A DNA stretch of 64,000 bases from a virus (IMGVR_UViG_3300045988_024527:29796-93795), one strand, 5' to 3'; counted from the stretch's first letter, positions 6,124 to 59,606 are shown. Translations and numbers: made by a program. The notes: generated from the letters alone by a model not told the origin.

Positions 6124-6657
6124 TCAACTTAGTTTTGCAAACTCTCCGTGGAGTTTAATAGCAGCTTCACAGTAAGCTTTATAGGCTTCTTCAGGTGTGT
6201 CATGGTGACCTAAAAACATCTTCTTACCTTTATAACTTATCTGTGCGACCCACTTACCGGACTTCTTCTTAAGACTTACACCCTTGTACCCAGATTTATT
6301 GGTGACTGGTTTACCTTTATTCCAAGCACTTTGAAAATCATCTGCTTCCCTTAAGTTTACAATCCTGTTGTCAAGCGAGTCTCCGTTGATATGGTCAATG
6401 ATACCTTTTGGCATCTTGCCATACACGTAAAGCCATGCGAGTCTGTGTGCTTTATGTGCTTTCTTGTCAAAATAGATACTAATCTGTTTATGACCACTTG
6501 AATCAGTCTGGATATTACCTGCCACCTTTCCTGCATAATTACTGTTAAAAACACTAACAGCTCTTGATTTACCTTCTCTACGAAGCCAAGTAAAGACCCC
6601 TGTTTCGGGGTCATAGTGCAGCAGCTCCTTTAAACGTTTTTGTAAAATTAAATCCAT
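6124..6657 (-). CDS. HNH homing endonuclease with AP2 DNA-binding domain
   Basis: YDPETGVFTW N-terminus, HNH core AHRLAWLY..IDHINGDSLDNRIVNLRE, AP2-like GYKGVS..KWVAQI; paralogs at 16217 and 29784. Confidence 0.8.
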   Translation of the reverse strand: MDLILQKRLKELLHYDPETGVFTWLRREGKSRAVSVFNSNYAGKVAGNIQTDSSGHKQISIYFDKKAHKAHRLAWLYVYGKMPKGIIDHINGDSLDNRIVNLREADDFQSAWNKGKPVTNKSGYKGVSLKKKSGKWVAQISYKGKKMFLGHHDTPEEAYKAYCEAAIKLHGEFAKLS

Positions 6658-6660
6658 TAA

Positions 6661-9390
6661 TCAATGTACCTCATACCAGCTCTTACCAACCTTTGCTGTA
6701 CCAGTTACAAGTGTTTCTTTCCTCAAACCTAAGTTTTTTGAAGCTTGTCCATACATCCAGTCAGCAATTGCTTTCATATCCTGTGTCATACCCTCTGGAC
6801 ATTCCCAACTATTTTCATCGTGATATGCCAGAAGTAACCTTGCTCCGATAGCTGGTTTTCGAGCATTCAGTTTTGTCAGGCCATCTTCACAGGCTTTTCT
6901 TGCTGCTAGGTTGATGGCCTCATTCTGAATCTGTGCTTCCGAACTCATCAGGAGGTAGTTCAGTAGTTTATGTGGAGATTTGCACCATATCCATGCTCCA
7001 GCGACCCTGATATAACCACCTTTAGCAATTGAAGAATTCTTCCCAAAAACCTCTTCCAGAGCCTTTTTAGACGCCTTAAAATCGGCTTCTAAGCTATCAA
7101 GTAACTTCTTAATCTTTGGCAGACGCATATAGTAAGTTTGTTTAGTCAATGCACCTTCTTCCGTAGATGATGCCTTGATAGTTTTTGCAAACTTCTCGTC
7201 TCCGGCTCCAAATAACAGGGCGTAGATGCCATTTTTGCTCTTCTTACGGCCTTTTGTAATCTCGTGAAGAAGTTCCTCATCCTGTGTCTCCCTACAACGA
7301 ACAATATCTTCTTCCTTGTTCAGACCAAAGTAAATACTGTTCAGTGTATGCGCATCAGTCCCTGTGTAGACTTCATAGAGGTCGTTCTCAGCATCATAAC
7401 GAAGATACTTGTCAGTTTCTGGATTAAGATACTTATTGAGATGCTTGCAATAGTATCTGCCATCCTCTTGCTTAGTGAACTCTACCGACTCTTTACCCTC
7501 AGTTACTGCTTTAGTGAAGTCTTCATCACCCATAAAGTTACAAAGAAGAACTAGCTGTGCAGAGTTCTGGTCAACTGAAACAATGTTAGTCCCTTCCTCA
7601 CAAATCCAAACCTCCCTCATAGGTGCTCCATAGACAGCAGCACCAGACGGTACGTTTACAATACCATATTGTGTCATACGTCCAGTTGAAGTACCAAACA
7701 CCATTGCACCAGCACTAAGGCGACCATCTGGACGAATCTGGTTCAACCAACCTTTTTCATCATCCTTTGAGTTCTCAATAGTTCTGCGTCTGTGCATCAA
7801 AGTATAGTACTTAGCAATCTTCTGTCCAAGCTCACCTTCAATCGTATCATAAGATGATTCAGTAAGTTTTGGTGAAGTACGGATTAAGCAAGGTTCAAGC
7901 AAATCTGTGTACTTCTTCACAGACCAGTTATGCTCAATGTACTGTACACCTTCATGTTCAACATAACTCAAACCACACCGCTCGACCATTTCCTGCCACT
8001 TAGGATGCTTTGTAATCATCTTTTTATTGTCTTTGAAACGACAAACTTTGACAGGGCGACCATCTGAGTCTTTCTTGTAGTTCCAGTCATCTGGAATCCA
8101 ACCAACTGATTTCAAGTAGTCTTTAACAACTGCTACCTGAGTCATACGAGAAACTTCAAACTCAATTGGTGTATATGGTGCATCAATCAAACCTGTGTAG
8201 CGACTTGACTCAAGTTCAAAGTGGTTAACAACATGGCTGTTATAGTACTTCACAGTTTTGACTGTTTTTACTGGCTTCCAGTCTTTGCATTTCTTACCAA
8301 TCTTTGCATTCAACTCATTGCAAATTGCACGAGCATCCTTCATTGCTACAAAGCCTTCCTTGTACTCTTCACCAGTTACAGAGTTGGTTGGTGTATAGCA
8401 ATTTCTCTTTTCAATGTTAAAAATCTTTGTAGTTGGCTTACCAAATGGTTTGATTTCGTATGTCTGCATCTCGCCATTACGTACCTGCTGACGATACTTT
8501 GTCTTAGGGTACTTGGTAATTCTTTTCAGTCCATCTGCATGACCAAATGTTTCAACATACTCATTCCAAGCTTTTGCAAACTCTTCTCCAGTGACTTTAC
8601 CTTTGGTCTTAATAGTTGGAGGAAGATGTGGTTCAACCTCTGAAGCAAGCTCATTAGTCAATTTGTCAAGTTCCTTCACATGGAACTCCATAAGCTCTTT
8701 ATCAGCTTTCCAGCCATTGATAGCTTGTTGACTCATCCAGAAAGATGTTTCTTTAGCTCGCATATAGGTTTCATAAGTATCTATGCCACACTTCTTAAGC
8801 TTGAGATACTCATTATCAAGTGCCCGTTTAGCTTTGGCGTTAATACGGATGTCTTCTACAACACGAGTGAAGATTTCTGCATTCCATACACCCCAATGCT
8901 CAATCTCTGGTTTACGAACACCAACACGAGCACCCCATGCAGCCAAACCATGAGCACCTTTATAACCCTTCGGAGTTGGTCTATCCATCCACTGAACACG
9001 AGACTGGATAAGAGAATCCTGAAAGAAATTACTCCACGGTTTACACTTTGGATTATCAAAGTTCCATAAATCAGGTGCAATGTGATTGAAAACCCACCAG
9101 TCATAACCGAGGCCGTTATGGATACAAAGTCGTTTTGCCTTTAACGCAAACTCAACACCTTCACGTAAACTACCCTTAATGTACTTGGTATACTTGTGAC
9201 CGAGGATAGGCTCATCTGTAAAGACCCATACAGGTGGCTCTTCATCGTCAGATTTATAGTCTGCGAAAGCCATTACGTGCACTTTAGTGAACTCAAGGAG
9301 TAAACCATCAGTTTCTGTATCACCAACTAAATGTAAGTTTTTAAAATCTACGTTTTCCATTTTTACTCCCTCTAAAATCATTAACCTCAT
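6661..9390 (-). CDS. DNA polymerase, family A, with 3'-5' proofreading exonuclease
   Basis: Exo I motif VGDTETDGLL; Pol motif C YHDE; motif B-like KKSKNGIYALLFGAG; 909 aa. Confidence 0.9.
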   Translation of the reverse strand: MRLMILEGVKMENVDFKNLHLVGDTETDGLLLEFTKVHVMAFADYKSDDEEPPVWVFTDEPILGHKYTKYIKGSLREGVEFALKAKRLCIHNGLGYDWWVFNHIAPDLWNFDNPKCKPWSNFFQDSLIQSRVQWMDRPTPKGYKGAHGLAAWGARVGVRKPEIEHWGVWNAEIFTRVVEDIRINAKAKRALDNEYLKLKKCGIDTYETYMRAKETSFWMSQQAINGWKADKELMEFHVKELDKLTNELASEVEPHLPPTIKTKGKVTGEEFAKAWNEYVETFGHADGLKRITKYPKTKYRQQVRNGEMQTYEIKPFGKPTTKIFNIEKRNCYTPTNSVTGEEYKEGFVAMKDARAICNELNAKIGKKCKDWKPVKTVKTVKYYNSHVVNHFELESSRYTGLIDAPYTPIEFEVSRMTQVAVVKDYLKSVGWIPDDWNYKKDSDGRPVKVCRFKDNKKMITKHPKWQEMVERCGLSYVEHEGVQYIEHNWSVKKYTDLLEPCLIRTSPKLTESSYDTIEGELGQKIAKYYTLMHRRRTIENSKDDEKGWLNQIRPDGRLSAGAMVFGTSTGRMTQYGIVNVPSGAAVYGAPMREVWICEEGTNIVSVDQNSAQLVLLCNFMGDEDFTKAVTEGKESVEFTKQEDGRYYCKHLNKYLNPETDKYLRYDAENDLYEVYTGTDAHTLNSIYFGLNKEEDIVRCRETQDEELLHEITKGRKKSKNGIYALLFGAGDEKFAKTIKASSTEEGALTKQTYYMRLPKIKKLLDSLEADFKASKKALEEVFGKNSSIAKGGYIRVAGAWIWCKSPHKLLNYLLMSSEAQIQNEAINLAARKACEDGLTKLNARKPAIGARLLLAYHDENSWECPEGMTQDMKAIADWMYGQASKNLGLRKETLVTGTAKVGKSWYEVH

Positions 9391-9430
9391 ACATTACTGC
9401 AAAAAATTATAAAAAGCAAGTTGACAATGC

Positions 9431-9443
9431 ACTTGACAAGGTG
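9431..9443 (+). promoter_or_regulatory. conserved 13-mer ACTTGACAAGGTG (promoter-associated motif)
   Basis: same 12-13-mer at 25920-25931 and 55230-55242, each at the start of a plus-strand gene block; tandem TTGACA boxes. Confidence 0.45.
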
Positions 9444-9617
9444 TTAATCTTTGCGAAGTGGGTTTTTACTTAAAAGGTTACTTAACAGTTTAACTATACA
9501 GATACTTTAAAACTCTTAAAAGATTATTTAATAGCTTTTAAAAAGCTTTAAAGTATAACGTATAGAATACGTTAAGATAAAAGATTAAAACTTAATAGTT
9601 ACTTAAAAGAGGCTTAC

Positions 9618-10040: not shown

Positions 10041-10041
10041 T

Positions 10042-15228: not shown

Positions 15229-16275
15229 ATGGAGAAGTACACATTAACAAAACTTCCCGATTCAGTTACACATGTCTTTATTGACTCTGACAGTATTGCC
15301 TATAAAGGTGCTTGTGTAGTTGAGAAAGCAAAATATAAATACGTCAATAAACTCACAGCAGAAGAATCTGAGCCATTTGATAATGCGAAAGATGCTGCAA
15401 GATGGTTAGCAGACCAGAGAATCCTTGTGGAAGAGCTTGGCCTGACATTTGATGAAGATGAATGGGAAAGACAGACTTGGAAAGAAGCGAAGAGTGAAAA
15501 AGAAGCTATCATGGCTACTCAACAGGTGCTTCAGGAATGGCTTAAGGTTGTTGGTAAAGAGAGAACTTGGGTAGGTTACTTAACAGAGAAAGGTGTGCAT
15601 AAACACAAAGACATTAAAGGTCTTGAGCACCAATATCAAGGTAACCGCAAAGATGCTGTCACACCAACACACTTAGTTGCTTGTCGTGAGTATCTTCTGT
15701 CAAGACCAGAGTTCAAATTAATTCTTGATGGATTTGAAGCTGACTCTATCGTTATTGCTAAAGCTGAAAAGATGGGAAAAAAGGCTGCCTTAATGAGTAT
15801 TGATAAAGACCTTCGCCAAGCTGAAGGGACTTACTGTATTGATATGACCTATGAAAAGTCGCCTTTGATTTTCATTGCTGATAACAATGTTGGTGAAATT
15901 TGGGATTGTCCAATAAAATCGACACCAAAAGCTAAGAAGACAGTTGGGGTAGGTTTTAAATTTCTTTGTTACCAAGCTGTGGCTGGTGATAATGCGGATA
16001 ATTATTTTGGTTTAAAGGGTGTTGGTAAGGTTACTATAATGAAAGCCCTTGAAGGTAAAACCACCTACAAAGAGTGTCTTGATGCAATTTATGAACTTTA
16101 TGCTAAGAAAGAGTCATACACTTATGTCTCGTGGGATGGTCAAACAATTACCAGAACACCTTTAGAGTTAATGCAGCAACACTTTTTCTTAGCTTATCAG
16201 GAAAGAAACAAGAAAGATGATTTCACTTTTGATAAGTATGGATGGACACCAAATGTTAACCCAACAAACTCTTAA
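15229..16275 (+). CDS. 5'-3' exonuclease / flap endonuclease
   Basis: N-terminal VFIDSDSIAYKG nuclease motif and H3TH-like AGDNADNYFGLKGVGKVT. Confidence 0.7.
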   Translation: MEKYTLTKLPDSVTHVFIDSDSIAYKGACVVEKAKYKYVNKLTAEESEPFDNAKDAARWLADQRILVEELGLTFDEDEWERQTWKEAKSEKEAIMATQQVLQEWLKVVGKERTWVGYLTEKGVHKHKDIKGLEHQYQGNRKDAVTPTHLVACREYLLSRPEFKLILDGFEADSIVIAKAEKMGKKAALMSIDKDLRQAEGTYCIDMTYEKSPLIFIADNNVGEIWDCPIKSTPKAKKTVGVGFKFLCYQAVAGDNADNYFGLKGVGKVTIMKALEGKTTYKECLDAIYELYAKKESYTYVSWDGQTITRTPLELMQQHFFLAYQERNKKDDFTFDKYGWTPNVNPTNS

Positions 16276-16744
16276 AGAATACCTACACTATGACCCCGAA
16301 ACAGGGGTCTTTACTTGGATTAAGAAGTCTGCTAGACACACAAAAATTGGCTCTGTTGCAGGTACAAACTTAAGAGGGTACACCAGAATTTATTTGTTTG
16401 GTAAGGGTTATTATGCACATACTCTAGCTGTTCTGTATATGGATGGATACCTACCTGAGTGTGTTGACCATAAAAATCATGTAACACTAGACAATCGATG
16501 GGTAAACCTTAGGGCATGTACATTATCAGAGAACCAATGCAATAGGTTGCTCAATAAGAACAATAAATCAGGTGTTAAAGGTGTGTACTACAAAAAACAG
16601 TATGGTAAGTGGTCTACACAGATAACTTTTAAGAAGAAAGTTTACTTCTTCGGAAACTATGACACTATTGATGAAGCAGCAGAGGTTGTAAATAGGGAAC
16701 GCCAACGTTTACACAAAGAGTTTGCTAATAAAGGTGATGAATGA
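16217..16744 (+). CDS. HNH homing endonuclease with AP2 domain
   Basis: YDPETGVFTW, HNH YAHTLAVLY..VDHKNH..NRWVNLR, AP2-like GVKGVYY..KWSTQI. Confidence 0.8.
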   Translation: MISLLISMDGHQMLTQQTLKEYLHYDPETGVFTWIKKSARHTKIGSVAGTNLRGYTRIYLFGKGYYAHTLAVLYMDGYLPECVDHKNHVTLDNRWVNLRACTLSENQCNRLLNKNNKSGVKGVYYKKQYGKWSTQITFKKKVYFFGNYDTIDEAAEVVNRERQRLHKEFANKGDE

Positions 16745-17241
16745 GAAAAATAAAAGGTTTTGGCAATTGCCCTGAATATGGACATTGGGTTTCACTATGT
16801 GGTGAAGTTGACCCAGCAAAGCACTTTGGTTTTGTCTACCTAGTGTACTGCAAAAAGACTGGACAGTACTACTTGGGTAAAAAACAGCTTAATAGTGTGA
16901 CCAAAAGAAAAGTTGCTGGTAAGACTCGGAAGAAGGTAGTCACTAAGGAAAGTGATTGGATGACTTACGAGACTTCTTCTGAGTATATCAAAAAAGATAT
17001 TGAAAGCTTTGGAAAAGAATCTTTTGACTTTTATATTATTCAAACCTACTACACAAAAGGTGGCCTAGTTTATGGTGAAGCAAACCTTCAACATAAGTTC
17101 GATGTAATGACAAAAAGGATTGACTCGAAGCTCAGACTCTTCTACAATGCCAATATTGCAGCAATTAAGTTTATTACTAAAGAAACTTATGAAGATGCTG
17201 AAAAAAGAATCCATAAGGTAATGAAAGCAAATTGTGCTTGA
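16741..17241 (+). CDS. putative GIY-YIG homing endonuclease
   Basis: FGFVYLVYCKKTGQYYLGK resembles GIY-(x10)-YIG motif. Confidence 0.5.
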   Translation: MRKIKGFGNCPEYGHWVSLCGEVDPAKHFGFVYLVYCKKTGQYYLGKKQLNSVTKRKVAGKTRKKVVTKESDWMTYETSSEYIKKDIESFGKESFDFYIIQTYYTKGGLVYGEANLQHKFDVMTKRIDSKLRLFYNANIAAIKFITKETYEDAEKRIHKVMKANCA

Positions 17242-23030: not shown

Positions 23031-24227
23031 ATGAACAAAGTACAGATTATTAAAAAGAATGGCTCACTTGAAGAACCTGATATCAAAAAAGTTTTAGCAG
23101 CAGTAACTAAGTCAGCTAACAGAGTTGGATATAAAGAACTCCCACCAGATGTTACCCAAGCTCTTGAGTCAGCATTTATGAGGATTCTGGTAAAGTCCAC
23201 TAAGCAGAATAATTTACTCATCTCAGTCAATGATATCCACAGCATTGTTGAGGGTGCTTTGGCAGAAGTCAATCACGAGATTTATGAGTCTTACTCAACA
23301 TATAGAAATTACCGGAAAGAGGTTGCTCAAAATTGGGATGAGCTTTACCAAAAGACTAGAGACACGCTCTTCTTAGGTGACCGTGAAAACGCTAACTTTG
23401 ACAGCAGTTTAATTTCTACAAAAGGTTCAATTATTCGTGGTTATCTGACTAAAGAAATCTTTAAACAGTACCATTTAACACCAGAGGAACTTGAAGCCAT
23501 TGAAAAAGGGTTTATCTATATCCATGATTTAAGAGACCTAATTTTTGGTGGTATCAACTGTTGCCTGTTTGACATTGGTAAAGTACTGAAAGGTGGCTTT
23601 GAAATGTCTGGCATCGAATACTGTGAACCGAAGTCTGTGCTGTCAGCCTTACAGGTTATTGGTGATGTAGTTCTTTCAGCAACTGCACAGCAATTTGGTG
23701 GCTTTACTTTAGCAGAGATTGATAAGGTACTTGTACCGTATGCTAAGAAGTCTCTACGCTATCATGCTGAGAAAGCAGCATCTTACGGTATTCCTAAAGA
23801 ACATTACCACAATTATGTCATGGAGCAGCTACAGATTGAACTGACTCAAGGTTTCCAGTCACTTGAAATGAAACTAAACACTGTACCTTGTAGTCGTGGG
23901 GATTTTGCATTTACAACTTTGACATTTGGGTTACTTGACTCAGATATGTCTAATGAAGATAATCGACTGCAATACATGATTGCAAGTACTCTCCTAGATG
24001 TTCGTATGAATGGACAAGGTAAGAGCAAGAAGCCTGTTGTATTCCCTAAACTGGTTTATATTTATGACCAGAAGAGACACGATGAGAATATCTGTCAAGG
24101 ACACCTGTACAGTAAAGCCATTGAGTGTTGCTCTAAAGCGATGTATCCAGATTTCTTAAGTGTATCTGGTCATGGTGCTGTAGCAGAGGCTTTTGAGCGT
24201 TCTGGTAAGGTTATTTCACCGATGGGT
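23031..24227 (+). CDS. nrdD: anaerobic ribonucleoside-triphosphate reductase, exon 1
   Basis: ends ...SPMG then in-frame TAA; C-terminal half resumes in frame at 24970. Confidence 0.75.
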
Positions 24228-24969
24228 TAACAGGCTCTATAGCTCATCTAAAACGTGCCTAAACAGGGAAACTCTACAGATGTAGACAATCCTGTGCTAA
24301 ATGATGTACGATGTAAGAAACTATACAACATAGGAGTCTTACATGCCAAACTATCACGTCACTGAAGATGGAAAAGTCTTTAGGGAAAATGGTGTAGAAC
24401 TTACGCAGTGGAAATCCAACACTGGGTATATGAAAGTGAGGTTTTACGGTAAGAAGAATCGTGACATGTATGTCCACAGGTTAGTTGCTGAGAAATATGT
24501 ACCTAACCCGAATAATCTTCCAATTGTAAAACATAAGGACGATAACAAACTAAATAACCACGCATCTAACTTAGAATGGGGTACTCATTCTGAGAATGCT
24601 AAAGAGGGTTATGAGAACGGATGTTACAAGTTCCACAAGCGTTCATATGCCGTGAAAGCCACACACAAAGTGACAAAGGAAGTTATTGTTGCTAAGTCAA
24701 TACGAGAGTTATCCAATATACTTGGACACAATCGCAAGACCATCTCTTCAATATTGAAGGGTGTAAAAGAGCATAATAACTTCGAATATGAGTTTGAATA
24801 CATCTAAATGCCGAACGACTAACCGTGATGAATGTAGCGGTGTAGGGTCAAGCGACTCGAAATGGTACGCTACTTAGAAATAAGTAGAAGATATAGTCTG
24901 GACTTACTGGCGACAGTAAGCAGCTTGAATAAAGCGGGGTAAGCTTAGCGAACTTACCTGAACAACAAG
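24228..24969 (+). mobile_element. putative group I self-splicing intron in nrdD
   Basis: 742 bp insert splitting one conserved protein; stop codon at 5' junction after U; ends in G; contains HNH ORF; core-like segments GTAGGGTCAAGCGACTCGAAA and AGATATAGTC. Confidence 0.55.
24343..24807 (+). CDS. HNH homing endonuclease (intron-encoded)
   Basis: VHRLVAEKY..HKDDNKLNNHASNLEWGTHSEN HNH motif. Confidence 0.7.
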   Translation: MPNYHVTEDGKVFRENGVELTQWKSNTGYMKVRFYGKKNRDMYVHRLVAEKYVPNPNNLPIVKHKDDNKLNNHASNLEWGTHSENAKEGYENGCYKFHKRSYAVKATHKVTKEVIVAKSIRELSNILGHNRKTISSILKGVKEHNNFEYEFEYI

Positions 24970-25917
24970 TGTAGAGCGTTTTTATCACCATATCTTAACG
25001 ATAATGGGGAAGAGTTCTATGTAGGTCGTGCTAACATTGGTGCTGTGTCTTTGAACTTACCAATGATTTACCAGTATTCTAAAGAGAATGGTTTAGATTT
25101 CTGGAAAGAGCTTGATAAGTACCTAGAGATGATTCGTAGTTTCCACAAGAAACGCTATGAAATGATTGCCAATATGCCAGCAAGTTCTAACCCTCTTGCA
25201 TTTACACAAGGTGGTCTGTACAAAGGAACTAAGAAGCCTACTGACAAGGTTGGTTGGGATATTGTGAAGTCCTTCACAGCTTCTTTTGGGGTTACTGCGC
25301 TTGATGAGCTATCTGTTCTTGCTGAAGGTAAACGACTTCATGAAGTTGGAAGCTATAGTTTTGCATATGATGTTCTGGCATACATCAATATGAAAACTGA
25401 AGAGTTTAAGAACGAAGATGGCTTCTTGTATGCGGTATATGGCACTCCAGCAGAATCACTTTGTGGAACTCAGTTAAAACAGTTCAGAGATATGTTTGGC
25501 GTTATTAAAGGTGTCTCTGACAAGGAATACTTTACAAACAGTTTCCATATGAATGTTGCAGCAGACATCTCACCATTTGAGAAGCAGGACTTAGAAGAGC
25601 CATTCTTCCATATCTGTAGAGGTGGTAGAATCCAGTATGTAAGGGTAGCTAACCCAGAAAACTTACCAGCACTTAAAAGTTGTATTACAAGAGGGATGTT
25701 GAAGGGTTTTTATCAGGGACTTAACTTTGACTTAGCAATCTGTGAACATTGTGGTAACAGACCAAAAGCTGATGTTGAAGAATGTGAGGTTTGTCATTCA
25801 CATGATATCTCTGTGATTAACAGGGTGTGCGGATACTTATCATTCACAAAAATTAAAGGCCAGTCTCGAATGAATGACGCTAAGATGGCAGAAATTAAGG
25901 ATAGGATTTCTATGTAA
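24970..25917 (+). CDS. nrdD: anaerobic ribonucleoside-triphosphate reductase, exon 2
   Basis: open frame from 24949; GRANIGAVSLNLP matches conserved NrdD region; C-terminal CEHCG..CEVCHSHD cysteine cluster and glycyl-radical region. Confidence 0.7.
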   Translation, partial: CRAFLSPYLNDNGEEFYVGRANIGAVSLNLPMIYQYSKENGLDFWKELDKYLEMIRSFHKKRYEMIANMPASSNPLAFTQGGLYKGTKKPTDKVGWDIVKSFTASFGVTALDELSVLAEGKRLHEVGSYSFAYDVLAYINMKTEEFKNEDGFLYAVYGTPAESLCGTQLKQFRDMFGVIKGVSDKEYFTNSFHMNVAADISPFEKQDLEEPFFHICRGGRIQYVRVANPENLPALKSCITRGMLKGFYQGLNFDLAICEHCGNRPKADVEECEVCHSHDISVINRVCGYLSFTKIKGQSRMNDAKMAEIKDRISM

Positions 25918-27733: not shown

Positions 27734-28045
27734 ATGGAAAAGATTTATAACACTCGTAAAATTCAGATTTCTATTCTGTGTCAGTTTATGGCTGATAAGC
27801 ACAATTCACATTATTGTGGCACAGGTTTCCTTACTCTTGGCGGCGGTTACATTAGCTTCAAAGAGGCTGTAAAGATGTACAATGAGCACCCTGAAGATGA
27901 TAAAGAGCTGAAGCAGCTTAAACTTTCTTATGATAAGAAACGTAAGAAAATAATCTGCTTGAACAACCTTATCAAGCCAACTGAAAAGGTCTATGATGCA
28001 ATTGGTGAAGAAGGTTTCTTCAAAGTATTGAAATTAGTTCAGTAA
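27734..28045 (+). CDS. hypothetical protein
   Basis: 103 aa ORF. Confidence 0.4.
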   Translation: MEKIYNTRKIQISILCQFMADKHNSHYCGTGFLTLGGGYISFKEAVKMYNEHPEDDKELKQLKLSYDKKRKKIICLNNLIKPTEKVYDAIGEEGFFKVLKLVQ

Positions 28046-28096: not shown

Positions 28097-28612
28097 ATGT
28101 ACCTGTCAAACCTGAAACGTTCGGCTGCAATGTCAGTGTTAAGGCTCAGCTTTGAGGAACGTCAAGAGTTCATTGACTCCCACCAATATGACCCTTCCAA
28201 CTCCAATCACATGATTCTCTGGAATCGTGAGAGTACTCGTGAAAGAGCACTATTCCGCTATTACCCACATTACACCATAGATAACCTGTATGAATGTTTT
28301 GTTGTGAAGAACACCATTACAGTACTCAATAAGCTTTGCAGATACACAGGTAACCAGTCCTTCACATTAGGCCACCACAAGCCTGTTACAAAAGGTGGTG
28401 AACATCACTGTGCAAACTGGTTTATCCAGACTAAAGCTGATAATCAGAAGCAAGGAGATAGACTTTTAAGCACCTCTAAGATGACCTATGAAGAGCAAGA
28501 GAAATATATCAAAAACAATATGCCAGATGTGCTTGACAACAGCTATACAGATTTGGCAATATCTCTCCTGTTGAAGTTCGAGACAGTTTATAGGGCAACT
28601 TACAATGGCTAA
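28097..28612 (+). CDS. HNH endonuclease
   Basis: GHHKPVTKGGEHHCANWFIQTKADN HNH-like motif. Confidence 0.55.
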   Translation: MYLSNLKRSAAMSVLRLSFEERQEFIDSHQYDPSNSNHMILWNRESTRERALFRYYPHYTIDNLYECFVVKNTITVLNKLCRYTGNQSFTLGHHKPVTKGGEHHCANWFIQTKADNQKQGDRLLSTSKMTYEEQEKYIKNNMPDVLDNSYTDLAISLLLKFETVYRATYNG

Positions 28613-28883
28613 AGCAGATTGGGAAATAAAAGACCTAATAAGTGATGCTGGAAATGGTTGTGAGATGTATATGATTCGTGGCCATATACCAGACCCATTA
28701 GCTCTTGAGATGATTGACCGTCACACAAACGGATTCTACAAAGAACTAGGTGAACCAAATGTTGAACGCACTTGGACAAAACCAGTACCAGATAGCACAG
28801 GCAACTGTTCAGTAATCTATCACATTGTGAATCCACAAAAATGCAAAACAGCTATGGCTGTGACATTCGTAACTTTTGATTGA
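28605..28883 (+). CDS. hypothetical protein
   Basis: 92 aa ORF. Confidence 0.35.
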   Translation: MAKADWEIKDLISDAGNGCEMYMIRGHIPDPLALEMIDRHTNGFYKELGEPNVERTWTKPVPDSTGNCSVIYHIVNPQKCKTAMAVTFVTFD

Positions 28884-29783: not shown

Positions 29784-30275
29784 ATGGATAAGGGTTACTT
29801 CGAAAAATACCTAATATACGAACCGGAGACAGGTTTACTAATTTGGAAAGTAACCCTTTGCAATACCGCTATTGCTGGTAATGTTGCTGGCACAAGGTCT
29901 AAGAAGGGTTATATCCAAGTCCAGATAAATAAGAAGAGGTACTATGCACATAATATTGCATGGATTATGTCTGGAGGTGAGATACCAAGTGGATATGAGA
30001 TAGACCACATAGACCTTGATAAATCTAATAATAAGTTGGAGAATTTAAGACTTAGCACAAAATCACAAAATCAGAGGAATAGGGGTATATACAAGAATAA
30101 TAAAACTGGTGTGAAGGGTGTAAGTTTTTGTAAACAAACAGGTCTTTACAAAGCAAGAGTCATGCTTTACCATAAAGAATACTTTTGTGGAAGATTTAAA
30201 ACGGTAGAAGAAGCAAAAGAAGCTGTAATTAAAAAGCGAATAGAACTTCATGGTGAGTTTGCAAGACATAACTAA
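29784..30275 (+). CDS. HNH homing endonuclease with AP2 domain
   Basis: YEPETGLLIW, YAHNIAWIM..IDHIDLDKSNNKLENLR, GVKGVSF AP2-like. Confidence 0.8.
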   Translation: MDKGYFEKYLIYEPETGLLIWKVTLCNTAIAGNVAGTRSKKGYIQVQINKKRYYAHNIAWIMSGGEIPSGYEIDHIDLDKSNNKLENLRLSTKSQNQRNRGIYKNNKTGVKGVSFCKQTGLYKARVMLYHKEYFCGRFKTVEEAKEAVIKKRIELHGEFARHN

Positions 30276-49799: not shown

Positions 49800-49984
49800 T
49801 CAAGGTCAACAAGTCTTTGCAGGACTTTCCCTCTAGGTGTTACACCCTTTAAATCTGCATCATAGCAACGGTAAAAGTCACCTTCAGCGTGTTTACCATA
49901 GCATTTTCTGATATTCTGGCTTCTACGATACTGTTCTAACAGGGACAGCTTGTAGTAGTCTTCAACTGTAGTTAACTTTTTCAT
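49766..49984 (-). CDS. hypothetical protein
   Basis: 72 aa. Confidence 0.35.
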   Translation of the reverse strand: MKKLTTVEDYYKLSLLEQYRRSQNIRKCYGKHAEGDFYRCYDADLKGVTPRGKVLQRLVDLEWNKRLRGIGK

Positions 49985-50526
49985 CCTTTCACCATAGCGT
50001 TTCTGAACTGGCGTTGTGTTTCTCTTGTAATTTCGTTTGGAGTAAACCCTGCTTTTAGCATATCTCTGAAAAGAACTTCTAAATGGTTCCTCTCAATGAT
50101 GTAAATGGCATTCTGAATAGCTGTTTTACGCTCCTTCAGGTCGCTGCTAATCTCTTCGCACTTGCTTGTAAGTTCTGTGTCAACTTTGTTATAGACTGGC
50201 ATAACATGTGCGTAGCAACCTTTATTAGTCTCCATGAAAAATTTAAAAGATTCTTCAGAGTCCTTTAGAGCAATCCCTATAAAGTTTTTGTAAGCACCTG
50301 TGAAAGATAAGGACTCAATCTCAGCAGTTGAGTATACAGTCCCTGCGCACAGTCTTGCAGAGGTACTAAATGTGTAGCTTTGTGTTATGTCAAAGTCTAA
50401 GTTCTTCAGTGGTCGGAAATAAACAGTACCATTGTGTGAGATGTGTGTTACAACAGCCTCAACACTCTTTGAAGGATTCTGTTTAACATACAAAATAATT
50501 TTATCGTGCTCTTTCACTTTAGTCAT
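49981..50526 (-). CDS. hypothetical protein
   Basis: 181 aa. Confidence 0.5.
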   Translation of the reverse strand: MTKVKEHDKIILYVKQNPSKSVEAVVTHISHNGTVYFRPLKNLDFDITQSYTFSTSARLCAGTVYSTAEIESLSFTGAYKNFIGIALKDSEESFKFFMETNKGCYAHVMPVYNKVDTELTSKCEEISSDLKERKTAIQNAIYIIERNHLEVLFRDMLKAGFTPNEITRETQRQFRNAMVKG

Positions 50527-52646: not shown

Positions 52647-53111
52647 TTACTTTGGATATACACTGTCAAGATAAATGTCAGCTTCCATTCTACGTCTGTT
52701 TTTCAGTCCGTTTGAAGTGACCTTCTGACCTTTAACTGTAACCTTGTTCCACCACTGCATAGCTTCTGCACAACCGACCTTATTACCATCGTTGTGGCGC
52801 TTGATAAATGTGGAGTCCTGCATAGCCGTGATACCAATGTTGTATGTTTCACTTACAAGTGCATCAAACTCATTCTGAGAAGTTGGAACCTTGATGGCTT
52901 TGTTAACTGCTGCAACGAACTTTTCAACATCTGCAAGAAGATACTGTTCAGCTTGTTCAGCAGTAATTTTCATACCCATCTTAACAGGTTTACCAGCAAT
53001 ACGGATAGTCCCATACCCAATTGTGGGGATTCCAGCAGAATCTTCGTAAGCCTCCAGCTTAAGACCTTCAAAGAACTTAATAGCTTCTAAACCTTTTCTT
53101 GAGAGTTGCAT
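52647..53111 (-). CDS. endolysin, T4-lysozyme-like muramidase (GH24)
   Basis: FEGLKLEAYEDSAGIPTIGYGT catalytic motif (Glu/Asp/Thr triad pattern). Confidence 0.8.
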   Translation of the reverse strand: MQLSRKGLEAIKFFEGLKLEAYEDSAGIPTIGYGTIRIAGKPVKMGMKITAEQAEQYLLADVEKFVAAVNKAIKVPTSQNEFDALVSETYNIGITAMQDSTFIKRHNDGNKVGCAEAMQWWNKVTVKGQKVTSNGLKNRRRMEADIYLDSVYPK

Positions 53112-53743
53112 TATACCCCTCCTACTGGGTTAACTGTAACTGTTGCTGCATTAGATGTTACAGAGCCACCTGCACCTGTTACAACACAAGTGTATGAACC
53201 AGCGTCAGAAGGTGCTACTGACTGTTTTGTGTAAGTTGCAGAATTGGCACTAGGGATGTCCTCACCATCCTTTTTCCACTGATATCCAGTGGCGTTAGTT
53301 GCTAGAATGCTTAGAGTAAGTGTGCCACCCTCATTGACTGTTTGATTGGTTGGTTGCTGAGTGATTGATGGTGGCTTGATAGCATCCTTCAGCTTAGCAT
53401 TCAGCATTGAGAAGGGCTTAACTCTTGCCAACCATTCACAATAAACTGTATCAACATCTTTACCATTGATAATTGCATATTGTAAGTCCATGAAGAAGTC
53501 AGAAGTTCTCATTTGAGCACCGATGCTGTAAAGCAACTCATCACTAAATGGGACTTTATAGTCTGGTTTGTAGTCAAACTTCTCAACTTCTGCAATATCA
53601 GCTTCAGGCCAATATGAACTATAGGTAAGTGGTAAAATAGCTTCTTGATATGTTCTAAAATCATATCTCTTACCAGCCTTTACATTTGCAATGAAGCCCT
53701 TCACAAACTCTTTGAAGTCTGGGTAAGTCCTTGCTTTAATCAT
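53111..53743 (-). CDS. hypothetical protein with C-terminal Ig-like domain
   Basis: Ig-like GSYTCVVTGAGGSVTSNAATVTVN; N-terminal half paralogous to 53740-54111. Confidence 0.5.
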   Translation of the reverse strand: MIKARTYPDFKEFVKGFIANVKAGKRYDFRTYQEAILPLTYSSYWPEADIAEVEKFDYKPDYKVPFSDELLYSIGAQMRTSDFFMDLQYAIINGKDVDTVYCEWLARVKPFSMLNAKLKDAIKPPSITQQPTNQTVNEGGTLTLSILATNATGYQWKKDGEDIPSANSATYTKQSVAPSDAGSYTCVVTGAGGSVTSNAATVTVNPVGGV

Positions 53744-57238: not shown

Positions 57239-57256
57239 AAAGTTTTAAAAAGGGTA

Positions 57257-57480: not shown

Positions 57481-57487
57481 AATTAAT

Positions 57488-57565
57488 GTTCCAGTAGACA
57501 AAATGGTATAGTCACCACTCTTTCAAAGTGGATATCTGAGGGTTCAAATCCCTTCTGGAACGCCA
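57488..57565 (+). tRNA. tRNA-Glu (anticodon UUC), hand-folded
   Basis: acceptor GTTCCAG/CTGGAAC, anticodon stem CCACT/AGTGG loop CTTTCAA, CCA encoded. Confidence 0.55.
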
Positions 57566-57650
57566 GTTTTGACAGAAGACCGATTACAGCAAACAACTTT
57601 TACTTTTCGCGCATAGAAAACATAAAAAGCTTGGTCTGGTCATTAAGAAT

Positions 57651-57727
57651 CGCGGGTATAGAGAAAGGGCGTCTCACATGTCTCATTAGCATGGTAACGG
57701 TTGGTTCGACTCCAACACCCGCCTCCA
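57651..57727 (+). tRNA. tRNA-Met/Ile2 (anticodon CAU) with unpaired 1:72
   Basis: anticodon stem CATGT/GCATG loop CTCATTA, T-arm GTTGG-TTCGACT-CCAAC, C1-C72 mismatch. Confidence 0.45.
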
Positions 57728-57812
57728 AATTTACAGAAGACCGTTTACAGCAAAATTTAATGAAATTTTTAGCGGAAAAAATTGAAAGATACGGTCTGGT
57801 AATACTAAACAT

Positions 57813-57889
57813 GGTTAGGAAGCACATAAGGTATGTGCGGTCGCCTGTTAAGCGAATGGCACAGGGTTCGAGTCCCTGACTAACCGCCA
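57813..57889 (+). tRNA. tRNA-Asn (anticodon GUU)
   Basis: D-arm GCAC-ATAAGGTAT-GTGC, loop CTGTTAA, T-arm CAGGG-TTCGAGT-CCCTG, CCA. Confidence 0.6.
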
Positions 57890-57898
57890 AATTTAAAT

Positions 57899-57986
57899 GT
57901 GTCGTTATCCCGTAGATGGTAGCGGTGGGGACTGTAAATCCCTTGTCATTGAGACTCGGTAGGTTCGACTCCTACACGGCACACCA
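57899..57986 (+). tRNA. tRNA-Tyr (anticodon GUA), class II with long variable arm
   Basis: 88 nt; anticodon loop CTGTAAA; T-arm GTAGG-TTCGACT-CCTAC; CCA. Confidence 0.55.
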
Positions 57987-58008
57987 ATACTTAGCGAGAT
58001 ACTTAGTT

Positions 58009-58437
58009 ATGAGAGATGAAGTATACAAATCACAACTTGGTATGAGTTTAGGAACTGCACAAAACAGACTAGTAAAAGATTTGCTATTCGATTTGATATG
58101 TAAAACAAATCAAAATATATGTTTTCAGTGCGGAAAAGAAATGACTAGGGATGATTTCTCCATCGAGCATAAGATTCCGTGGAGACATAGTGAAAATGCA
58201 AAAGAGCTTTTCTTTTCATTAGATAATATTTCTTATAGTCATCTTAAATGTAATATGAAAGCAGCAAGACCAGCACAGGTATATGATAGGAAGCCTAAAC
58301 CAATTAAACACGGCACTGCACACAGCTACTCTAAAGGTTGTAGATGCGAGGAGTGTAGGCTGGCTAAGAATGCTGAGGGCAGGAAGCACTATAACCCAGA
58401 AAGGCGTAGGAAGAAGTATTTAAGAAATGGTACATAG
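58009..58437 (+). CDS. HNH endonuclease
   Basis: CFQCGKEM..FSIEHKIPW..HLKCN HNH motif; start set after tRNA-Tyr (track ORF 57916 overlaps tRNA). Confidence 0.6.
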   Translation: MRDEVYKSQLGMSLGTAQNRLVKDLLFDLICKTNQNICFQCGKEMTRDDFSIEHKIPWRHSENAKELFFSLDNISYSHLKCNMKAARPAQVYDRKPKPIKHGTAHSYSKGCRCEECRLAKNAEGRKHYNPERRRKKYLRNGT

Positions 58438-58443
58438 GGTTTT

Positions 58444-58519
58444 GGGGTGTTAGTTTAGACGGGTAAAATACTGGATTGTCTCTCCTGAGCCGCGAGTTCG
58501 ATTCTCGCACACCTCGCCA
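58444..58519 (+). tRNA. tRNA, anticodon unresolved (non-canonical anticodon arm; GUC/Asp possible)
   Basis: clear acceptor GGGGTGT/ACACCTC, T-arm GCGAG-TTCGATT-CTCGC and CCA; anticodon stem not clean. Confidence 0.4.
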
Positions 58520-58946
58520 ATTTTGAGAGGGCTATTTAGCCCCTCCCTTAAAGGGTTCTTACGAGTATCCTTTAAAGGAGCAGAAGACCAAATACAGCAA
58601 GTTACTTAAAATTTCAAGCCAATTCAATTTTGAAAAATTTAAAACTTGGTCTGGCTCAACAAATTTACAGAAGACCGTTTACAGCAAAACTTAAACAATC
58701 TATTTCTCCGGTAAAGAAAAGGCGAAGGTTCGATTCCTTCACTCGGCAGATGTCGAGTTGGTGTAATGGTAGCACTTAAGATGATAAACAACGGTCTGGT
58801 AATTATCTTTGTAGATAAGTTATTAAGCTTCCCTGTGAGTATGCGACCACAAAGGTGAAGGGTAAATTCTAGATTTAAACCCAAAAAGGCACATCGCTAC
58901 AGACCTTAAGCAAGTCTGGGTAGCTTATCTACAAAGATAATTTAAT

Positions 58947-59022
58947 GGAAGTGTAGCAGAATGGTGATGCGGCAGACTTTTAATCTGACAGGCGATGGGT
59001 TCGAATCCCTCCACTTCTACCA
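58947..59022 (+). tRNA. tRNA-Lys (anticodon UUU)
   Basis: acceptor GGAAGTG/CACTTCT, anticodon loop CTTTTAA, T-loop TTCGAAT, CCA. Confidence 0.5.
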
Positions 59023-59026
59023 ATAT

Positions 59027-59103
59027 GGTTCAGTCGCAGATAAGGTAATGCAAGGGTCTCATAAGCCCTATGAATGTGGGTTCGATTCCCATCTGAACCT
59101 CCA
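59027..59103 (+). tRNA. tRNA-Met (anticodon CAU)
   Basis: acceptor GGTTCAG/CTGAACC, anticodon stem AGGGT/GCCCT loop CTCATAA, T-arm GTGGG-TTCGATT-CCCAT, CCA. Confidence 0.55.
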
Positions 59104-59111
59104 ATTTATAG

Positions 59112-59606
59112 GTGATACTTATGATTTGTGCTAACAAAGATTGCGGAAATGAAGCCGTTAAAGGTGGAAAATTTTGCTCACGCTCTTGTTCTGCAAAAGT
59201 GAACAACAAGAAACACCCAAAGAGAAGTCAGGAAGGCTCTTGCCATTCATGCGGAAAGGTAACGCCAAAAGCGAGAAAATACTGTGACGAATGTATTGCA
59301 GGTGGAGTCATGAAAAAACATAAGACCCATCATGAAAAAAGCAAAGCCAAATCACTGCACGTTAAAAAGTCTCGTGACAGACTGAAGAAGGCTTTAGTTG
59401 ATTACAAGGGTGGTTGTTGTTCAATTTGTGGTTACAATAGGTGCATAAAGGCTCTAGAGTTTCACCACTTAGACCCTAAGACAAAAGACTTCACAGTAAG
59501 TAAAAAACACTACTCACTGGCTACAATGCAGTCTGAAGTTGATAAGTGTGTCTTGCTTTGTGCAAATTGTCACAGAGAAGTACACGAAGGGGTAACAATG
59601 CTGTGA
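59112..59606 (+). CDS. HNH endonuclease
   Basis: EFHHLDP..CVLLCANCHREVH HNH motif plus N-terminal Cys-rich region. Confidence 0.65.
   Translation: MILMICANKDCGNEAVKGGKFCSRSCSAKVNNKKHPKRSQEGSCHSCGKVTPKARKYCDECIAGGVMKKHKTHHEKSKAKSLHVKKSRDRLKKALVDYKGGCCSICGYNRCIKALEFHHLDPKTKDFTVSKKHYSLATMQSEVDKCVLLCANCHREVHEGVTML

What the first reader, a model, noticed from the sequence alone, without database searches (positions are those of the whole stretch)
6124..59606. High density of free-standing homing endonucleases, including three HNH-AP2 paralogs
Seven putative homing endonucleases: HNH-AP2 at 6124, 16217, 29784 (all beginning Y[DE]PETG); GIY-YIG at 16741; intron HNH at 24343; HNH at 28097; HNH at 58009 and 59112 within the tRNA cluster. 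They flank polymerase, flap endonuclease, the NAD module and tRNAs, typical intronless homing positions.
Basis: partly seen in the sequence, partly recalled or inferred. Interest (0 to 1): 0.4.

Follow-up and report, generated by a model that had tools for sequence, protein, structure and literature searches.

The report
Homing endonuclease genes in a Felix O1-like phage
The window is a Felix O1-type coliphage/Salmonella phage genome carrying six genuinely mobile, strain-variable homing endonuclease genes plus two conserved nuclease-like genes, which is a well documented and already annotated property of this phage genus.

Summary
Window 1-60057 is a Felixounavirus genome, about 95% identical to phiWec172, pinkbiff and ULIM9.

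Six behave as mobile homing endonucleases:
- Three HNH_3+AP2 genes downstream of DNA polymerase, the 5'-3' exonuclease and PRPP synthetase.
- One HNH gene inside a 742-nt group-I-like intron in nrdD.
- Two zinc-finger HNH genes between tRNA genes.

Each has precise empty sites, or divergent alleles, in close relatives. Flanking sequence co-varies with the endonuclease state. For example, all 5 HE7-positive genomes carry one tRNA-Asp allele and all 4 HE7-negative genomes carry another.

Two ORFs are not polymorphic. The GIY-YIG gene (16741) and ORF 28097 sit at the same place throughout Ounavirinae. ORF 28097 is only weakly HNH-like. Both look like core nucleases, not homing elements.

The HE1 lineage has Ser in place of the metal-binding Asn of I-HmuI, yet it is under purifying selection.

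Felix O1's six HNH genes were published in 2010, and relatives already annotate these genes. The finding is real but ordinary.

In passing: from 60058 the window switches to a ColE1-type plasmid carrying a HindIII-family R-M system. This is most likely contig concatenation.

The parts
6124..6657 (-). HE1: HNH_3 + AP2 endonuclease gene. It starts 3 nt downstream of the DNA polymerase stop (pol 6661-9390).
   Evidence: Pfam hits. In relatives the site holds at least 3 allelic lineages, 43-53% identical at the protein level, or is empty: LinBro has 32 nt between the flanks against 559 nt here. The polymerase 3' end co-varies with the allele. Ser replaces the Asn96-equivalent of I-HmuI. dN/dS is 0.13-0.24.
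16217..16744 (+). HE2: HNH_3 + AP2 endonuclease gene. It overlaps the 3' end of the 5'-3' exonuclease gene (15229-16275) and the start of the GIY-YIG gene. An alternative start is at 16238.
   Evidence: Pfam hits. The 497-nt segment 16240-16736 is replaced by 15 nt in phiWec172, BPS17W1, JohannRWettstein, LinBro and REP10. Felix O1 and dune carry a 58-60% identical allele. Only 18 of 245 records match this allele together with its flanks.
16741..17241 (+). HE4: conserved GIY-YIG domain protein of 166 aa, often mis-annotated 'NAD synthetase'.
   Evidence: PF19835 scores 95.1 bits. The gene is present in all 8 relatives at the same site, across Ounavirinae, and at 29-36% identity in cyanophages. 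It is not polymorphic and has no second domain.
23031..24227 (+). nrdD exon 1
   Evidence: Joining 24227 to 24970 in silico gives a 714-aa NrdD. It is identical to the uninterrupted Felix O1 NrdD at 699 of 715 positions.
24228..24969 (+). 742-nt group-I-like intron in nrdD
   Evidence: The insertion is precise relative to Felix O1 and dune. Exon 1 ends in U and the insert ends in G. Rfam Intron_gpI scores 33.1 bits, E 1.7e-6, at 24740-24920, which is below the gathering score of 50. A second weak hit lies at 24263-24346. REP10 has an ORF-less version lacking 24349-24774. JohannRWettstein annotates nrdD as a joined CDS.
24343..24807 (+). HE5: intron-encoded HNH_3 endonuclease
   Evidence: Pfam 41.2 bits; phrog_59 2.7e-42. 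The D/K-H...N...N motif is intact. 60 of 308 records carry the intron with the ORF.
24970..25917 (+). nrdD exon 2
28097..28612 (+). HE6: conserved 171-aa protein (phrog_3500) with an HNH-like motif. It is a core gene, not a mobile element.
29784..30275 (+). HE3: HNH_3 + AP2 endonuclease gene between the PRPP synthetase gene (28876-29775) and nadV (30294-32075)
   Evidence: Pfam hits. In BPS17W1, JohannRWettstein and REP10 the 505-nt segment 29775-30279 is replaced by a 31-34-nt GC hairpin followed by a T run. All occupied genomes carry a single allelic lineage, 90-100% identical.
58009..58437 (+). HE7: zinc-finger HNH endonuclease gene between tRNA-Tyr (57899-57986) and tRNA-Asp (58444-58519)
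   Evidence: In Felix O1, JohannRWettstein, pinkbiff and MET-P1-301 the site is empty and Tyr and Asp lie 5 nt apart. HE7 shows perfect linkage with a divergent tRNA-Asp allele: 5 of 5 carriers against 0 of 4 non-carriers. Only 23 phage records match at >=60% identity. 45-55% homologues occur in unrelated phage genera.
58444..58519 (+). tRNA-Asp(GTC) allele linked to HE7
59121..59606 (+). HE8: zinc-finger HNH endonuclease gene between tRNA-Met (59027-59103) and tRNA-Ile (59600-59675). The ORF could also start at GTG 59112. Its stop codon lies inside the tRNA-Ile 5' end.
   Evidence: phrog_2255. In JohannRWettstein, pinkbiff, Andreotti, SME50, BPS17W1 and RPN213 the site is empty, with Met and Ile 1-3 nt apart. 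HE8 is frameshifted in MET-P1-301. Only 11 records match at >=80% identity.
60021..60057 (+). First 12 codons of a ninth HNH gene, the homologue of Felix O1 ORF45. It is truncated where the phage sequence ends.

Best explanation
The window is a Felix O1-like myovirus (genus Felixounavirus). It carries six selfish homing endonuclease genes of known families at the insertion hot spots usual for the genus:
- Three I-HmuI-like HNH_3 nucleases fused to an AP2 DNA-binding domain. They sit downstream of DNA polymerase, downstream of the 5'-3' exonuclease, and between prs and nadV.
- One HNH_3 nuclease inside a group-I-type intron in nrdD.
- Two zinc-finger HNH nucleases between tRNA genes.

Inferred mechanism, by analogy with T4 and SPO1 systems. 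In a cell co-infected with a relative that lacks a given gene, the enzyme binds a long site at or beside the empty locus and nicks or cuts it. Recombinational repair then uses the endonuclease-carrying genome as template. This copies in the endonuclease gene together with a tract of flanking sequence. The carrier allele is protected because the insertion, or linked substitutions, destroy the site.

Shown here:
- the domain identities;
- intact motifs, except one Asn-to-Ser change in HE1;
- purifying selection on all eight ORFs;
- precise filled, empty and allelic site polymorphism;
- flanking tracts that co-vary with endonuclease state.

Inferred, not shown: cleavage activity, the target sites, and unidirectional inheritance.

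The GIY-YIG gene (16741) and ORF 28097 are not part of this mobile set. They are vertically inherited core genes of the subfamily, probably nucleases with a function for the phage itself.
For: Identity of the genome: one search found 345 matching phage records, the best at about 95% identity.

Domains.

Polymorphism in the phage database:
- HE1 with its flanks is present in 52 of 231 records.
- HE2 in 18 of 245.
- Intron plus HE5 in 60 of 308. ORF-less intron and intronless classes also occur.
- HE3 in about 14 of 60 sampled records.
- HE7 and HE8 together in 2 of 275.

Exact junctions and empty sites.

Allele lineages.

Flank co-variation: identity in the polymerase 3' end falls from 96-100% to 60-80% over 0.5-1 kb when the HE1 allele differs. 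The first 100-200 nt of the GIY-YIG gene fall to 75-85% in HE2-less genomes.

Linkage between HE7 and the tRNA-Asp allele is 5 of 5 against 0 of 4.

HE7 and HE8 homologues are scattered across unrelated phage genera, and HE8 homologues often lie next to tRNA genes.

dN/dS is 0.04-0.25 for all.

Removing the intron in silico restores NrdD.

Literature: Felix O1 has six HNH endonuclease genes (PMC3185647). Endonuclease 'infestation' and gene conversion in large coliphages is described in PMC8594841. Felixounavirus comparative genomics lists homing endonucleases (PMC8300805).
Against: - No cleavage or homing experiment exists for any of these proteins.
- The HE1 lineage has Ser at the position of the metal-binding Asn96 of I-HmuI, so it may be inactive, a weak nickase, or only a DNA binder.
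- The intron is below Rfam's gathering score (33.1 against 50).
- HE7 is just under the Pfam HNH cut-off, and HE8 has no Pfam hit.
- The HE8-type tRNA-Ile allele also occurs without HE8 in BPS17W1, SME50 and RPN213, so that linkage is one-sided.
- phiWec172 has a different HE1-site allele but the same polymerase 3' end.
Confidence: 0.85

Rival explanations
1. The nuclease genes are domesticated phage functions, such as host-DNA degradation, recombination or repair, packaging, or anti-defence. They are not selfish homing elements, and their variability is ordinary accessory-gene flux.
For: This reading fits the GIY-YIG gene and ORF 28097. Both are present in every relative at the same site, diverge in step with phage phylogeny, and have dN/dS of 0.13-0.19. 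The GIY-YIG protein is a bare catalytic domain: the Pfam match covers residues 22-139 of 166. All eight ORFs are under purifying selection.
Against: For the other six genes, several observations are hallmarks of homing rather than housekeeping:
- precise empty sites in about 70-97% of relatives;
- several unrelated alleles at one site;
- linked divergent flanks;
- scattered occurrence in unrelated phage genera.
Confidence: 0.1
2. The endonuclease genes are ancestral, and the polymorphism reflects repeated loss by deletion and decay. There is no ongoing gain by homing.
For: REP10 retains the nrdD intron with the HE5 ORF deleted. HE8 is frameshifted in MET-P1-301. Some relatives have a 206-nt shorter HE1 region (H50-H52). 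tRNA-Ile type X exists without HE8.
Against: - Empty sites are clean. They contain alternative functional sequence rather than scars: a terminator hairpin at the HE3 site, a different exonuclease C-terminus at the HE2 site, and different tRNA alleles.
- Unrelated alleles occupy the same site.
- The window's endonucleases each find their best match in a different relative: HE7 in 35FD at 99.3%, HE8 in Sl26 at 100%, HE5 in allfine, HE2 in VpaE1. This mosaic implies lateral transfer.
- The standard homing cycle includes decay after fixation, so these losses are compatible with the main explanation.
Confidence: 0.05

Closest known systems
The six HNH endonuclease genes of Salmonella phage Felix O1 (ORF44, 45, 47, 95, 106, 128; Whichard et al. 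2010, PMC3185647) and their annotated homologues in pinkbiff, BPS17W1, JohannRWettstein and others
   Same: - Same genus.
- Same three HNH-AP2 sites: after pol, after exo, and between prs and nadV.
- Same HE8 (97% identical at the protein level) between tRNA-Met and tRNA-Ile.
- HE3 is 93% identical to ORF128.
- The truncated ORF at 60021 is the ORF45 homologue.
   Different: - The alleles at the pol and exo sites are different lineages, 51% and 58% identical.
- Felix O1 lacks the nrdD intron and HE7.
- The window's combination is rare: both tRNA-region endonucleases occur together in only 2 of 275 records.
I-HmuI (Bacillus phage SPO1 intron-encoded HNH nicking endonuclease, PDB 1u3e)
   Same: Same HNH_3 fold family. 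A profile of the HNH-AP2 genes aligns to 1u3e residues 35-103 at E 1e-6, including D74-H75, N87 and N96.
   Different: The C-terminal DNA-binding module here is AP2, not the I-HmuI helix-turn-helix. Three of the genes are free-standing rather than intron-borne. HE1 has Ser at the N96 position. The catalytic roles of the I-HmuI residues are recalled from the literature and were not tested here.
Phage T4 SegB, the homing endonuclease in the T4 tRNA gene cluster (PMC2330249; PMC13096335)
   Same: A free-standing endonuclease gene sits between phage tRNA genes, and neighbouring tRNA sequence is inherited with it. HE7 is perfectly linked to a distinct tRNA-Asp allele and lies next to tRNA-Tyr.
   Different: SegB is a GIY-YIG enzyme, whereas HE7 and HE8 are zinc-finger HNH enzymes. 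The resemblance is in how they work, not in family membership. No cleavage or amplification data exist here.
Phage T4 nrdD (sunY) group I intron with its endonuclease ORF, and other phage ribonucleotide-reductase introns
   Same: A self-splicing-type intron interrupts nrdD and carries an endonuclease ORF in a peripheral loop. Intron-plus, ORF-less and intronless alleles coexist among relatives.
   Different: The ORF here is HNH_3. From memory, T4 I-TevII is GIY-YIG-like. Identity of the insertion site with T4 was not tested. The Rfam score is below gathering.

Membership tests
HNH_3 / I-HmuI-like HNH homing endonucleases with AP2 domain (HE1, HE2, HE3) | HNH_3 domain above the Pfam gathering score | tested here: met
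   54.5, 44.4 and 69.7 bits against 24.8. The family profile hits 1u3e.
HNH_3 / I-HmuI-like HNH homing endonucleases with AP2 domain (HE1, HE2, HE3) | AP2 DNA-binding domain C-terminal to the nuclease | tested here: met
   HE1 scores 47.5 bits against 33.3. HE2 and HE3 are below the cut-off (21.4 and 20.8 bits), but they align throughout with HE1, and the family profile hits the plant AP2 structures 7wq5 (3.3e-6) and 7et4.
HNH_3 / I-HmuI-like HNH homing endonucleases with AP2 domain (HE1, HE2, HE3) | Complete catalytic motif (D-H general base, structural Asn, metal-binding Asn equivalent to I-HmuI N96) | tested here: inconclusive
   HE2, HE3 and HE5 have all of these residues. HE1 and its closest alleles (BPS17W1, JohannRWettstein) have Ser at the N96-equivalent column: 'FQS' against 'SEN'/'SQN'.
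Homing endonuclease genes in general (mobile, selfish) | Presence/absence or allelic polymorphism at a fixed site among close relatives | tested here: met
   Met for HE1, HE2, HE3, HE5, HE7 and HE8. Not met for the GIY-YIG gene or ORF 28097.
Homing endonuclease genes in general (mobile, selfish) | Site-specific cleavage of the endonuclease-less allele and biased inheritance with co-conversion of flanks | not testable with these tools
   Only indirect evidence is available. Flank identity dips and tRNA-allele linkage track the endonuclease state.
GIY-YIG (Seg/I-TevI-like) homing endonucleases (ORF 16741) | GIY-YIG catalytic domain | tested here: met
   PF19835 SegE_GIY-YIG scores 95.1 bits against 25, over residues 22-139.
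GIY-YIG (Seg/I-TevI-like) homing endonucleases (ORF 16741) | Separate C-terminal DNA-binding domain giving long-site specificity | tested here: not met
   The protein is 166 aa. The catalytic domain ends at residue 139 and no second domain appears in Pfam or PHROGs.
GIY-YIG (Seg/I-TevI-like) homing endonucleases (ORF 16741) | Sporadic distribution among related genomes | tested here: not met
   Present at the same locus in all 8 relatives compared. Found in 253 records at >=80% identity and in other Ounavirinae genera at 60-88%.
Group I intron (nrdD insertion 24228-24969) | Match to the Rfam Intron_gpI covariance model at the gathering score | tested here: inconclusive
   No hit at gathering. 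In the E-value scan: 33.1 bits against 50, E 1.7e-6, with the conserved GAAGAUAUAGUCU element, plus a weak P4-P6 hit with E 0.29.
Group I intron (nrdD insertion 24228-24969) | Precise interruption of a conserved gene, a 5' exon ending in U, an intron ending in G, and an open reading frame restored on removal | tested here: met
   The restored protein is 714 aa and matches Felix O1 NrdD at 699 of 715 positions.
Group I intron (nrdD insertion 24228-24969) | Self-splicing | not testable with these tools
   This requires RT-PCR or in vitro splicing.
HNH (PF01844-type, zinc-finger) endonucleases (HE7, HE8, ORF 28097) | HNH domain or motif recognised by a curated model | tested here: inconclusive
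   HE7 scores 20.0 bits against 21.4 in Pfam but 1.8e-75 to phrog_23251. HE8 has no Pfam hit but 1.6e-36 to phrog_2255, and its CxxC/HH/N/CxxCH residues are visible. ORF 28097 has only a 1e-4 PHROG hit, a conserved motif and non-significant fold hits.

The most novel reading that the evidence does not exclude
The two tRNA-cluster endonucleases may do more than propagate themselves. Each travels with a sharply different allele of the adjacent tRNA. The two tRNA-Asp alleles look only about half identical by eye, and tRNA-Ile occurs as three alleles. HE7 and HE8 could therefore act as drivers that swap or amplify phage tRNA variants, for example variants resistant to host tRNA-cleaving defence nucleases. 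This would be an HNH-based counterpart of the recently described SegB/tRNA-Tyr/Septu escape mechanism in T-even phages.

A second, less likely, novel reading is that the phage-plasmid junction at 60057/60058, which lies inside an HNH gene, is a real capture of an R-M plasmid.
Probability: 0.12. Interest if true: 0.6.

Novelty: already known. Interest (0 to 1): 0.15.

Why it matters
The finding confirms that Felixounavirus genomes are mosaics shaped by homing endonucleases. This matters in practice for phylogeny and taxonomy, because regions next to these genes are gene-converted. It also matters for annotation clean-up: the GIY-YIG gene is widely mislabelled 'NAD synthetase', and a DUF7390 ORF is mislabelled 'HNH'.

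The tight linkage between endonuclease and tRNA allele gives ready-made natural substrates for mapping the targets of uncharacterised HNH enzymes. It also offers a possible link to phage tRNA-based counter-defence.

Nothing here changes current understanding.

Tried and rejected
- **Rfam gathering scan.** It found no intron. Only the relaxed scan gave sub-threshold hits.
- **NCBIfam.** No hit for any of the eight proteins.
- **PDB sequence search.** Nothing meaningful for the GIY-YIG protein. For ORF 28097 it gave only spurious low-complexity matches to Protein A repeats.
- **Structure of ORF 28097.** The AlphaFold model was low-confidence (pLDDT 57.6). Foldseek hits to Cas9-HNH and McrA were not significant, so the HNH assignment stays open.
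- **Other window-specific insertions, checked for further endonucleases.** These were 2126-3625 relative to Felix O1, 49996-50508 relative to pinkbiff, and 28610-28853 relative to BPS17W1. All encode PHROG families of unknown function and none is an endonuclease.
- **ORF 27734-28045.** Some relatives annotate it as 'putative HNH homing endonuclease'. It is DUF7390 with no HNH signal, so I rejected it as an endonuclease.
- **Recent duplication of the three HNH-AP2 genes.** Rejected: they are only 40-45% identical to each other, while orthologous alleles in other phages are 86-100% identical.
- **Search for the phage-plasmid junction in complete E. coli genomes.** No record spans it.

Full report
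**What the window is.**
A megablast of 5501-30500 against 50,697 phage records matched 345 records. These are nearly all Escherichia, Salmonella or Shigella Felix O1-like myoviruses (genus Felixounavirus). The best are at about 95% identity: phiWec172/174/177, ULIM9, CRP22 and pinkbiff. Gene order is collinear with Felix O1 and pinkbiff. It runs: ligase, DNA polymerase, primase-helicase, 5'-3' exonuclease, nrdAB, nrdDG, prs-nadV, rIIAB, lysis, tRNA cluster.

**Checking the observation.**
The text says "seven" but lists eight.
- *The three HNH-AP2 genes.* Pfam gives HNH_3 plus AP2 for 6124(-), 16217(+) and 29784(+). AP2 exceeds the curated cut-off only for 6124. A profile built from these genes and their alleles hits I-HmuI (1u3e, E 1e-6) and the plant AP2 structures 7wq5 and 7et4.
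- *The intron gene and the GIY-YIG gene.* Pfam gives HNH_3 for 24343 and a SegE-type GIY-YIG domain for 16741.
- *The two tRNA-cluster genes.* ORF 58009 is a marginal Pfam HNH (20.0 against 21.4 bits) but a strong PHROG HNH. ORF 59112/59121 is HNH by PHROGs only. Both show the CxxC...HH...N...CxxC-type motif in their sequences.
- *ORF 28097.* It has no Pfam or NCBIfam hit. Its family has an invariant GH[HY]K..KGGEHH..NW.IQ...DNQ block. A low-confidence model places this block on a beta-beta-alpha unit. Foldseek ranks Cas9-HNH and McrA domains first, but without significance. The HNH label for 28097 is therefore plausible but unproven.
- *Other candidates.* A ninth HNH ORF starts at 60021 and is cut off at 60057. 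ORFs in other window-specific insertions are not endonucleases.

**Are they mobile?**
I queried each locus with its flanks against the phage database. I then fetched eight relatives for the replication/nucleotide-metabolism region and nine for the tRNA region.

| Locus | Database frequency | States seen in close relatives |
|---|---|---|
| HE1 (after pol) | 52 of 231 records carry this allele with its flanks | Divergent HNH-AP2 alleles (43-53% aa identity) in others; empty in LinBro (32 nt against 559 nt) |
| HE2 (after exo) | 18 of 245 | Segment 16240-16736 replaced by 15 nt in five of eight relatives, giving the exonuclease a different C-terminal tail; 58-60% allele in Felix O1 and dune |
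| HE3 (prs-nadV) | about 14 of 60 sampled records | Three of eight relatives have a 31-34-nt hairpin with a T run instead |
| HE5 (nrdD intron) | 60 of 308 have intron plus ORF | ORF-less intron class (REP10 lacks exactly 24349-24774); intronless majority, including Felix O1 and dune |
| HE7 and HE8 (tRNA cluster) | both together in 2 of 275 | Empty sites leave tRNA-Tyr/Asp 5 nt apart and tRNA-Met/Ile 1-3 nt apart |

**Two genes fail that test.**
The GIY-YIG ORF is present at the same place in all eight relatives. It occurs in 253 records at >=80% identity and in other Ounavirinae genera at 60-88%. Distant homologues are a conserved gene in hundreds of cyanophages. It is a bare catalytic domain of 166 aa. 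ORF 28097 is likewise universal in the subfamily. It occurs at 40-53% identity in Erwinia phages and in rV5/phi92-like phages. Both look like vertically inherited core nucleases. Calling them homing endonucleases is not supported.

**Evidence bearing on mechanism.**
- *Age of the paralogues.* The three HNH-AP2 genes are old paralogues, 40-45% identical. Orthologous alleles in other phages are 86-100% identical.
- *Flank co-variation.* The polymerase 3' end is 96-100% identical in relatives with the same HE1 allele. It is 60-80% identical over 0.5-1 kb in those with another allele or none. The first 100-200 nt of the GIY-YIG gene drop to 75-85% in HE2-less genomes.
- *tRNA-Asp linkage.* All five HE7 carriers (window, L27, Andreotti, BPS17W1, SME50) have one tRNA-Asp allele. 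All four non-carriers with a tRNA-Asp have a very different one. This suggests that the HE7 target lies in or next to the "empty-type" tRNA-Asp.
- *tRNA-Ile linkage.* HE8 is always found with one of three tRNA-Ile alleles, and its stop codon lies inside that tRNA. The same allele also occurs without HE8.
- *Selection and spread.* All eight ORFs are under purifying selection, with dN/dS of 0.04-0.25. HE7 and HE8 homologues are scattered over unrelated phage genera, and HE8 homologues often lie beside tRNA genes. Each of the window's endonucleases has its best match in a different relative, which is a mosaic pattern.

These observations fit the standard homing or "intronless homing" model. Cleavage, target sites and biased inheritance remain inferred.

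**A caveat on HE1.**
In the alignment, the HE1 lineage (window, BPS17W1, JohannRWettstein) has Ser where every other allele has Asn, and where I-HmuI has N96. From the literature, as I recall it, N96 is the metal-binding residue. The gene is nevertheless conserved, with dN/dS of 0.13-0.15. It may be a weakened nickase, or it may be maintained for DNA binding.

**The nrdD insertion.**
The insertion is 742 nt (24228-24969). Exon 1 ends in U and the insert ends in G. Joining 24227 to 24970 restores a 714-aa NrdD that matches Felix O1 at 699 of 715 positions. Rfam's group I model matches below threshold: 33.1 bits, E 1.7e-6. The match includes the conserved GAAGAUAUAGUCU element, and there is a weak P4-P6 hit upstream of the ORF. 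JohannRWettstein's GenBank record already annotates this as a spliced nrdD with an intron endonuclease.

**Comparison with what is known.**
The Felix O1 genome paper reported six HNH endonuclease genes and discussed them (PMC3185647). Later Felixounavirus papers list homing endonucleases as a variable module (PMC8300805, PMC6669636). The BASEL study describes endonuclease infestation and gene conversion in large coliphages and used comparative alignment to delimit such introns (PMC8594841). Public records of close relatives already annotate these very genes. T4 SegB is the functional analogue for endonucleases in tRNA clusters (PMC2330249, PMC13096335), but it belongs to a different nuclease family. 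The finding is therefore real but already known.

**Side observation.**
Phage homology ends at 60057, inside the ORF45-type HNH gene. From 60058 to 64000 the sequence is 99.5% identical to a 3,824-bp ColE1-type E. coli plasmid (NZ_AP027826.1). That plasmid carries a HindIII-family restriction enzyme, its methyltransferase and RNAI.

The plasmid stretch runs for more than one unit length, covering plasmid positions 331-3824 and then 1-446. Its first about 70 nt differ from the second copy by an A8-to-A12 homopolymer change and several substitutions. No complete E. coli genome contains the junction.

This pattern suggests two contigs of a long-read assembly placed end to end. A true integration cannot be excluded. 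As a consequence, the window lacks the distal two-thirds of the usual tRNA cluster.

Noticed in passing
window 60058-64000: The sequence switches abruptly from phage to a ColE1-type small plasmid, 99.5% identical to E. coli plasmid NZ_AP027826.1 (3,824 bp). It contains a HindIII-family restriction endonuclease (60996-61922, minus strand), a methyltransferase whose 5' part is frameshifted by an A8-to-A12 run (only 60471-60995 remains open), and RNAI (63712-63813; Rfam 77.3 bits). The stretch exceeds one plasmid unit, and the two copies of the overlap are not identical. This is probably contig concatenation or a long-read assembly artefact. A real phage-plasmid recombinant is not excluded.
   Followed up: partly
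window 60021-60057: This is the start (MKTCIRCKLSKDE) of a ninth HNH endonuclease gene, homologous to Felix O1 ORF45 and the SME50 HNHc gene. It is truncated exactly at the phage/plasmid junction.
   Followed up: yes
window 59924-60002: A weak tRNA-like element (Rfam tRNA 31.2 bits; missed by ARAGORN) lies where endonuclease-less relatives have tRNA-Arg(TCT). The Felix O1 annotation runs ORF45 across it. This may be another case of a divergent or degenerate tRNA allele linked to a downstream HNH gene.
   Followed up: partly
window 7215/7220 (within DNA polymerase 6661-9390): The polymerase gene is uninterrupted here (909 aa). phiWec172, BPS17W1 and REP10 have a 272-nt ORF-less insertion at this point that splits the gene. 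LinBro has a larger insertion there, with 762 nt between the two polymerase CDS, carrying an 'endonuclease VII' ORF. This is a second intron site for which the window is the empty allele.
   Followed up: partly
window 25911-25917 (just after nrdD exon 2): BPS17W1 carries an extra 567-nt 'homing endonuclease' gene at this point that the window lacks. This is another polymorphic endonuclease site.
   Followed up: no
window 2126-3625: A 1.5-kb segment is absent from Felix O1. It holds two minus-strand ORFs of unknown function: 2290-2730 (phrog_5926) and 2733-3335 (phrog_4652). Neither is an endonuclease.
   Followed up: partly
window 49996-50508 and 53111-53743: ORF 49981-50526 (phrog_5380) is absent from pinkbiff. 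The 210-aa ORF 53111-53743 corresponds to pinkbiff's 461-aa 'putative tail protein' but lacks 750 nt (250 codons). The missing stretch appears to be a deletion between internal repeats.
   Followed up: no
window 16741-17241 and 27734-28045: There are annotation errors in public relatives. The GIY-YIG gene is widely called 'NAD synthetase' (phrog_447). The DUF7390 ORF 27734-28045 is called 'putative HNH homing endonuclease' in several records, without any HNH signal.
   Followed up: yes
window 58520-58946: The spacer between tRNA-Asp and tRNA-Lys contains tRNA-fragment-like pieces, for example a T-arm-like 'GGTTCGATTCC' near 58729. No tRNA is called there.
   Followed up: no
database hits: Records labelled Staphylococcus phage SA1, Campylobacter phages A126/A132 and Listeria phage LPML1 contain Felixounavirus or Ounavirinae sequence. 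For the first three it is 93-95% identical to this window. They look like chimeric or mislabelled public records.
   Followed up: no
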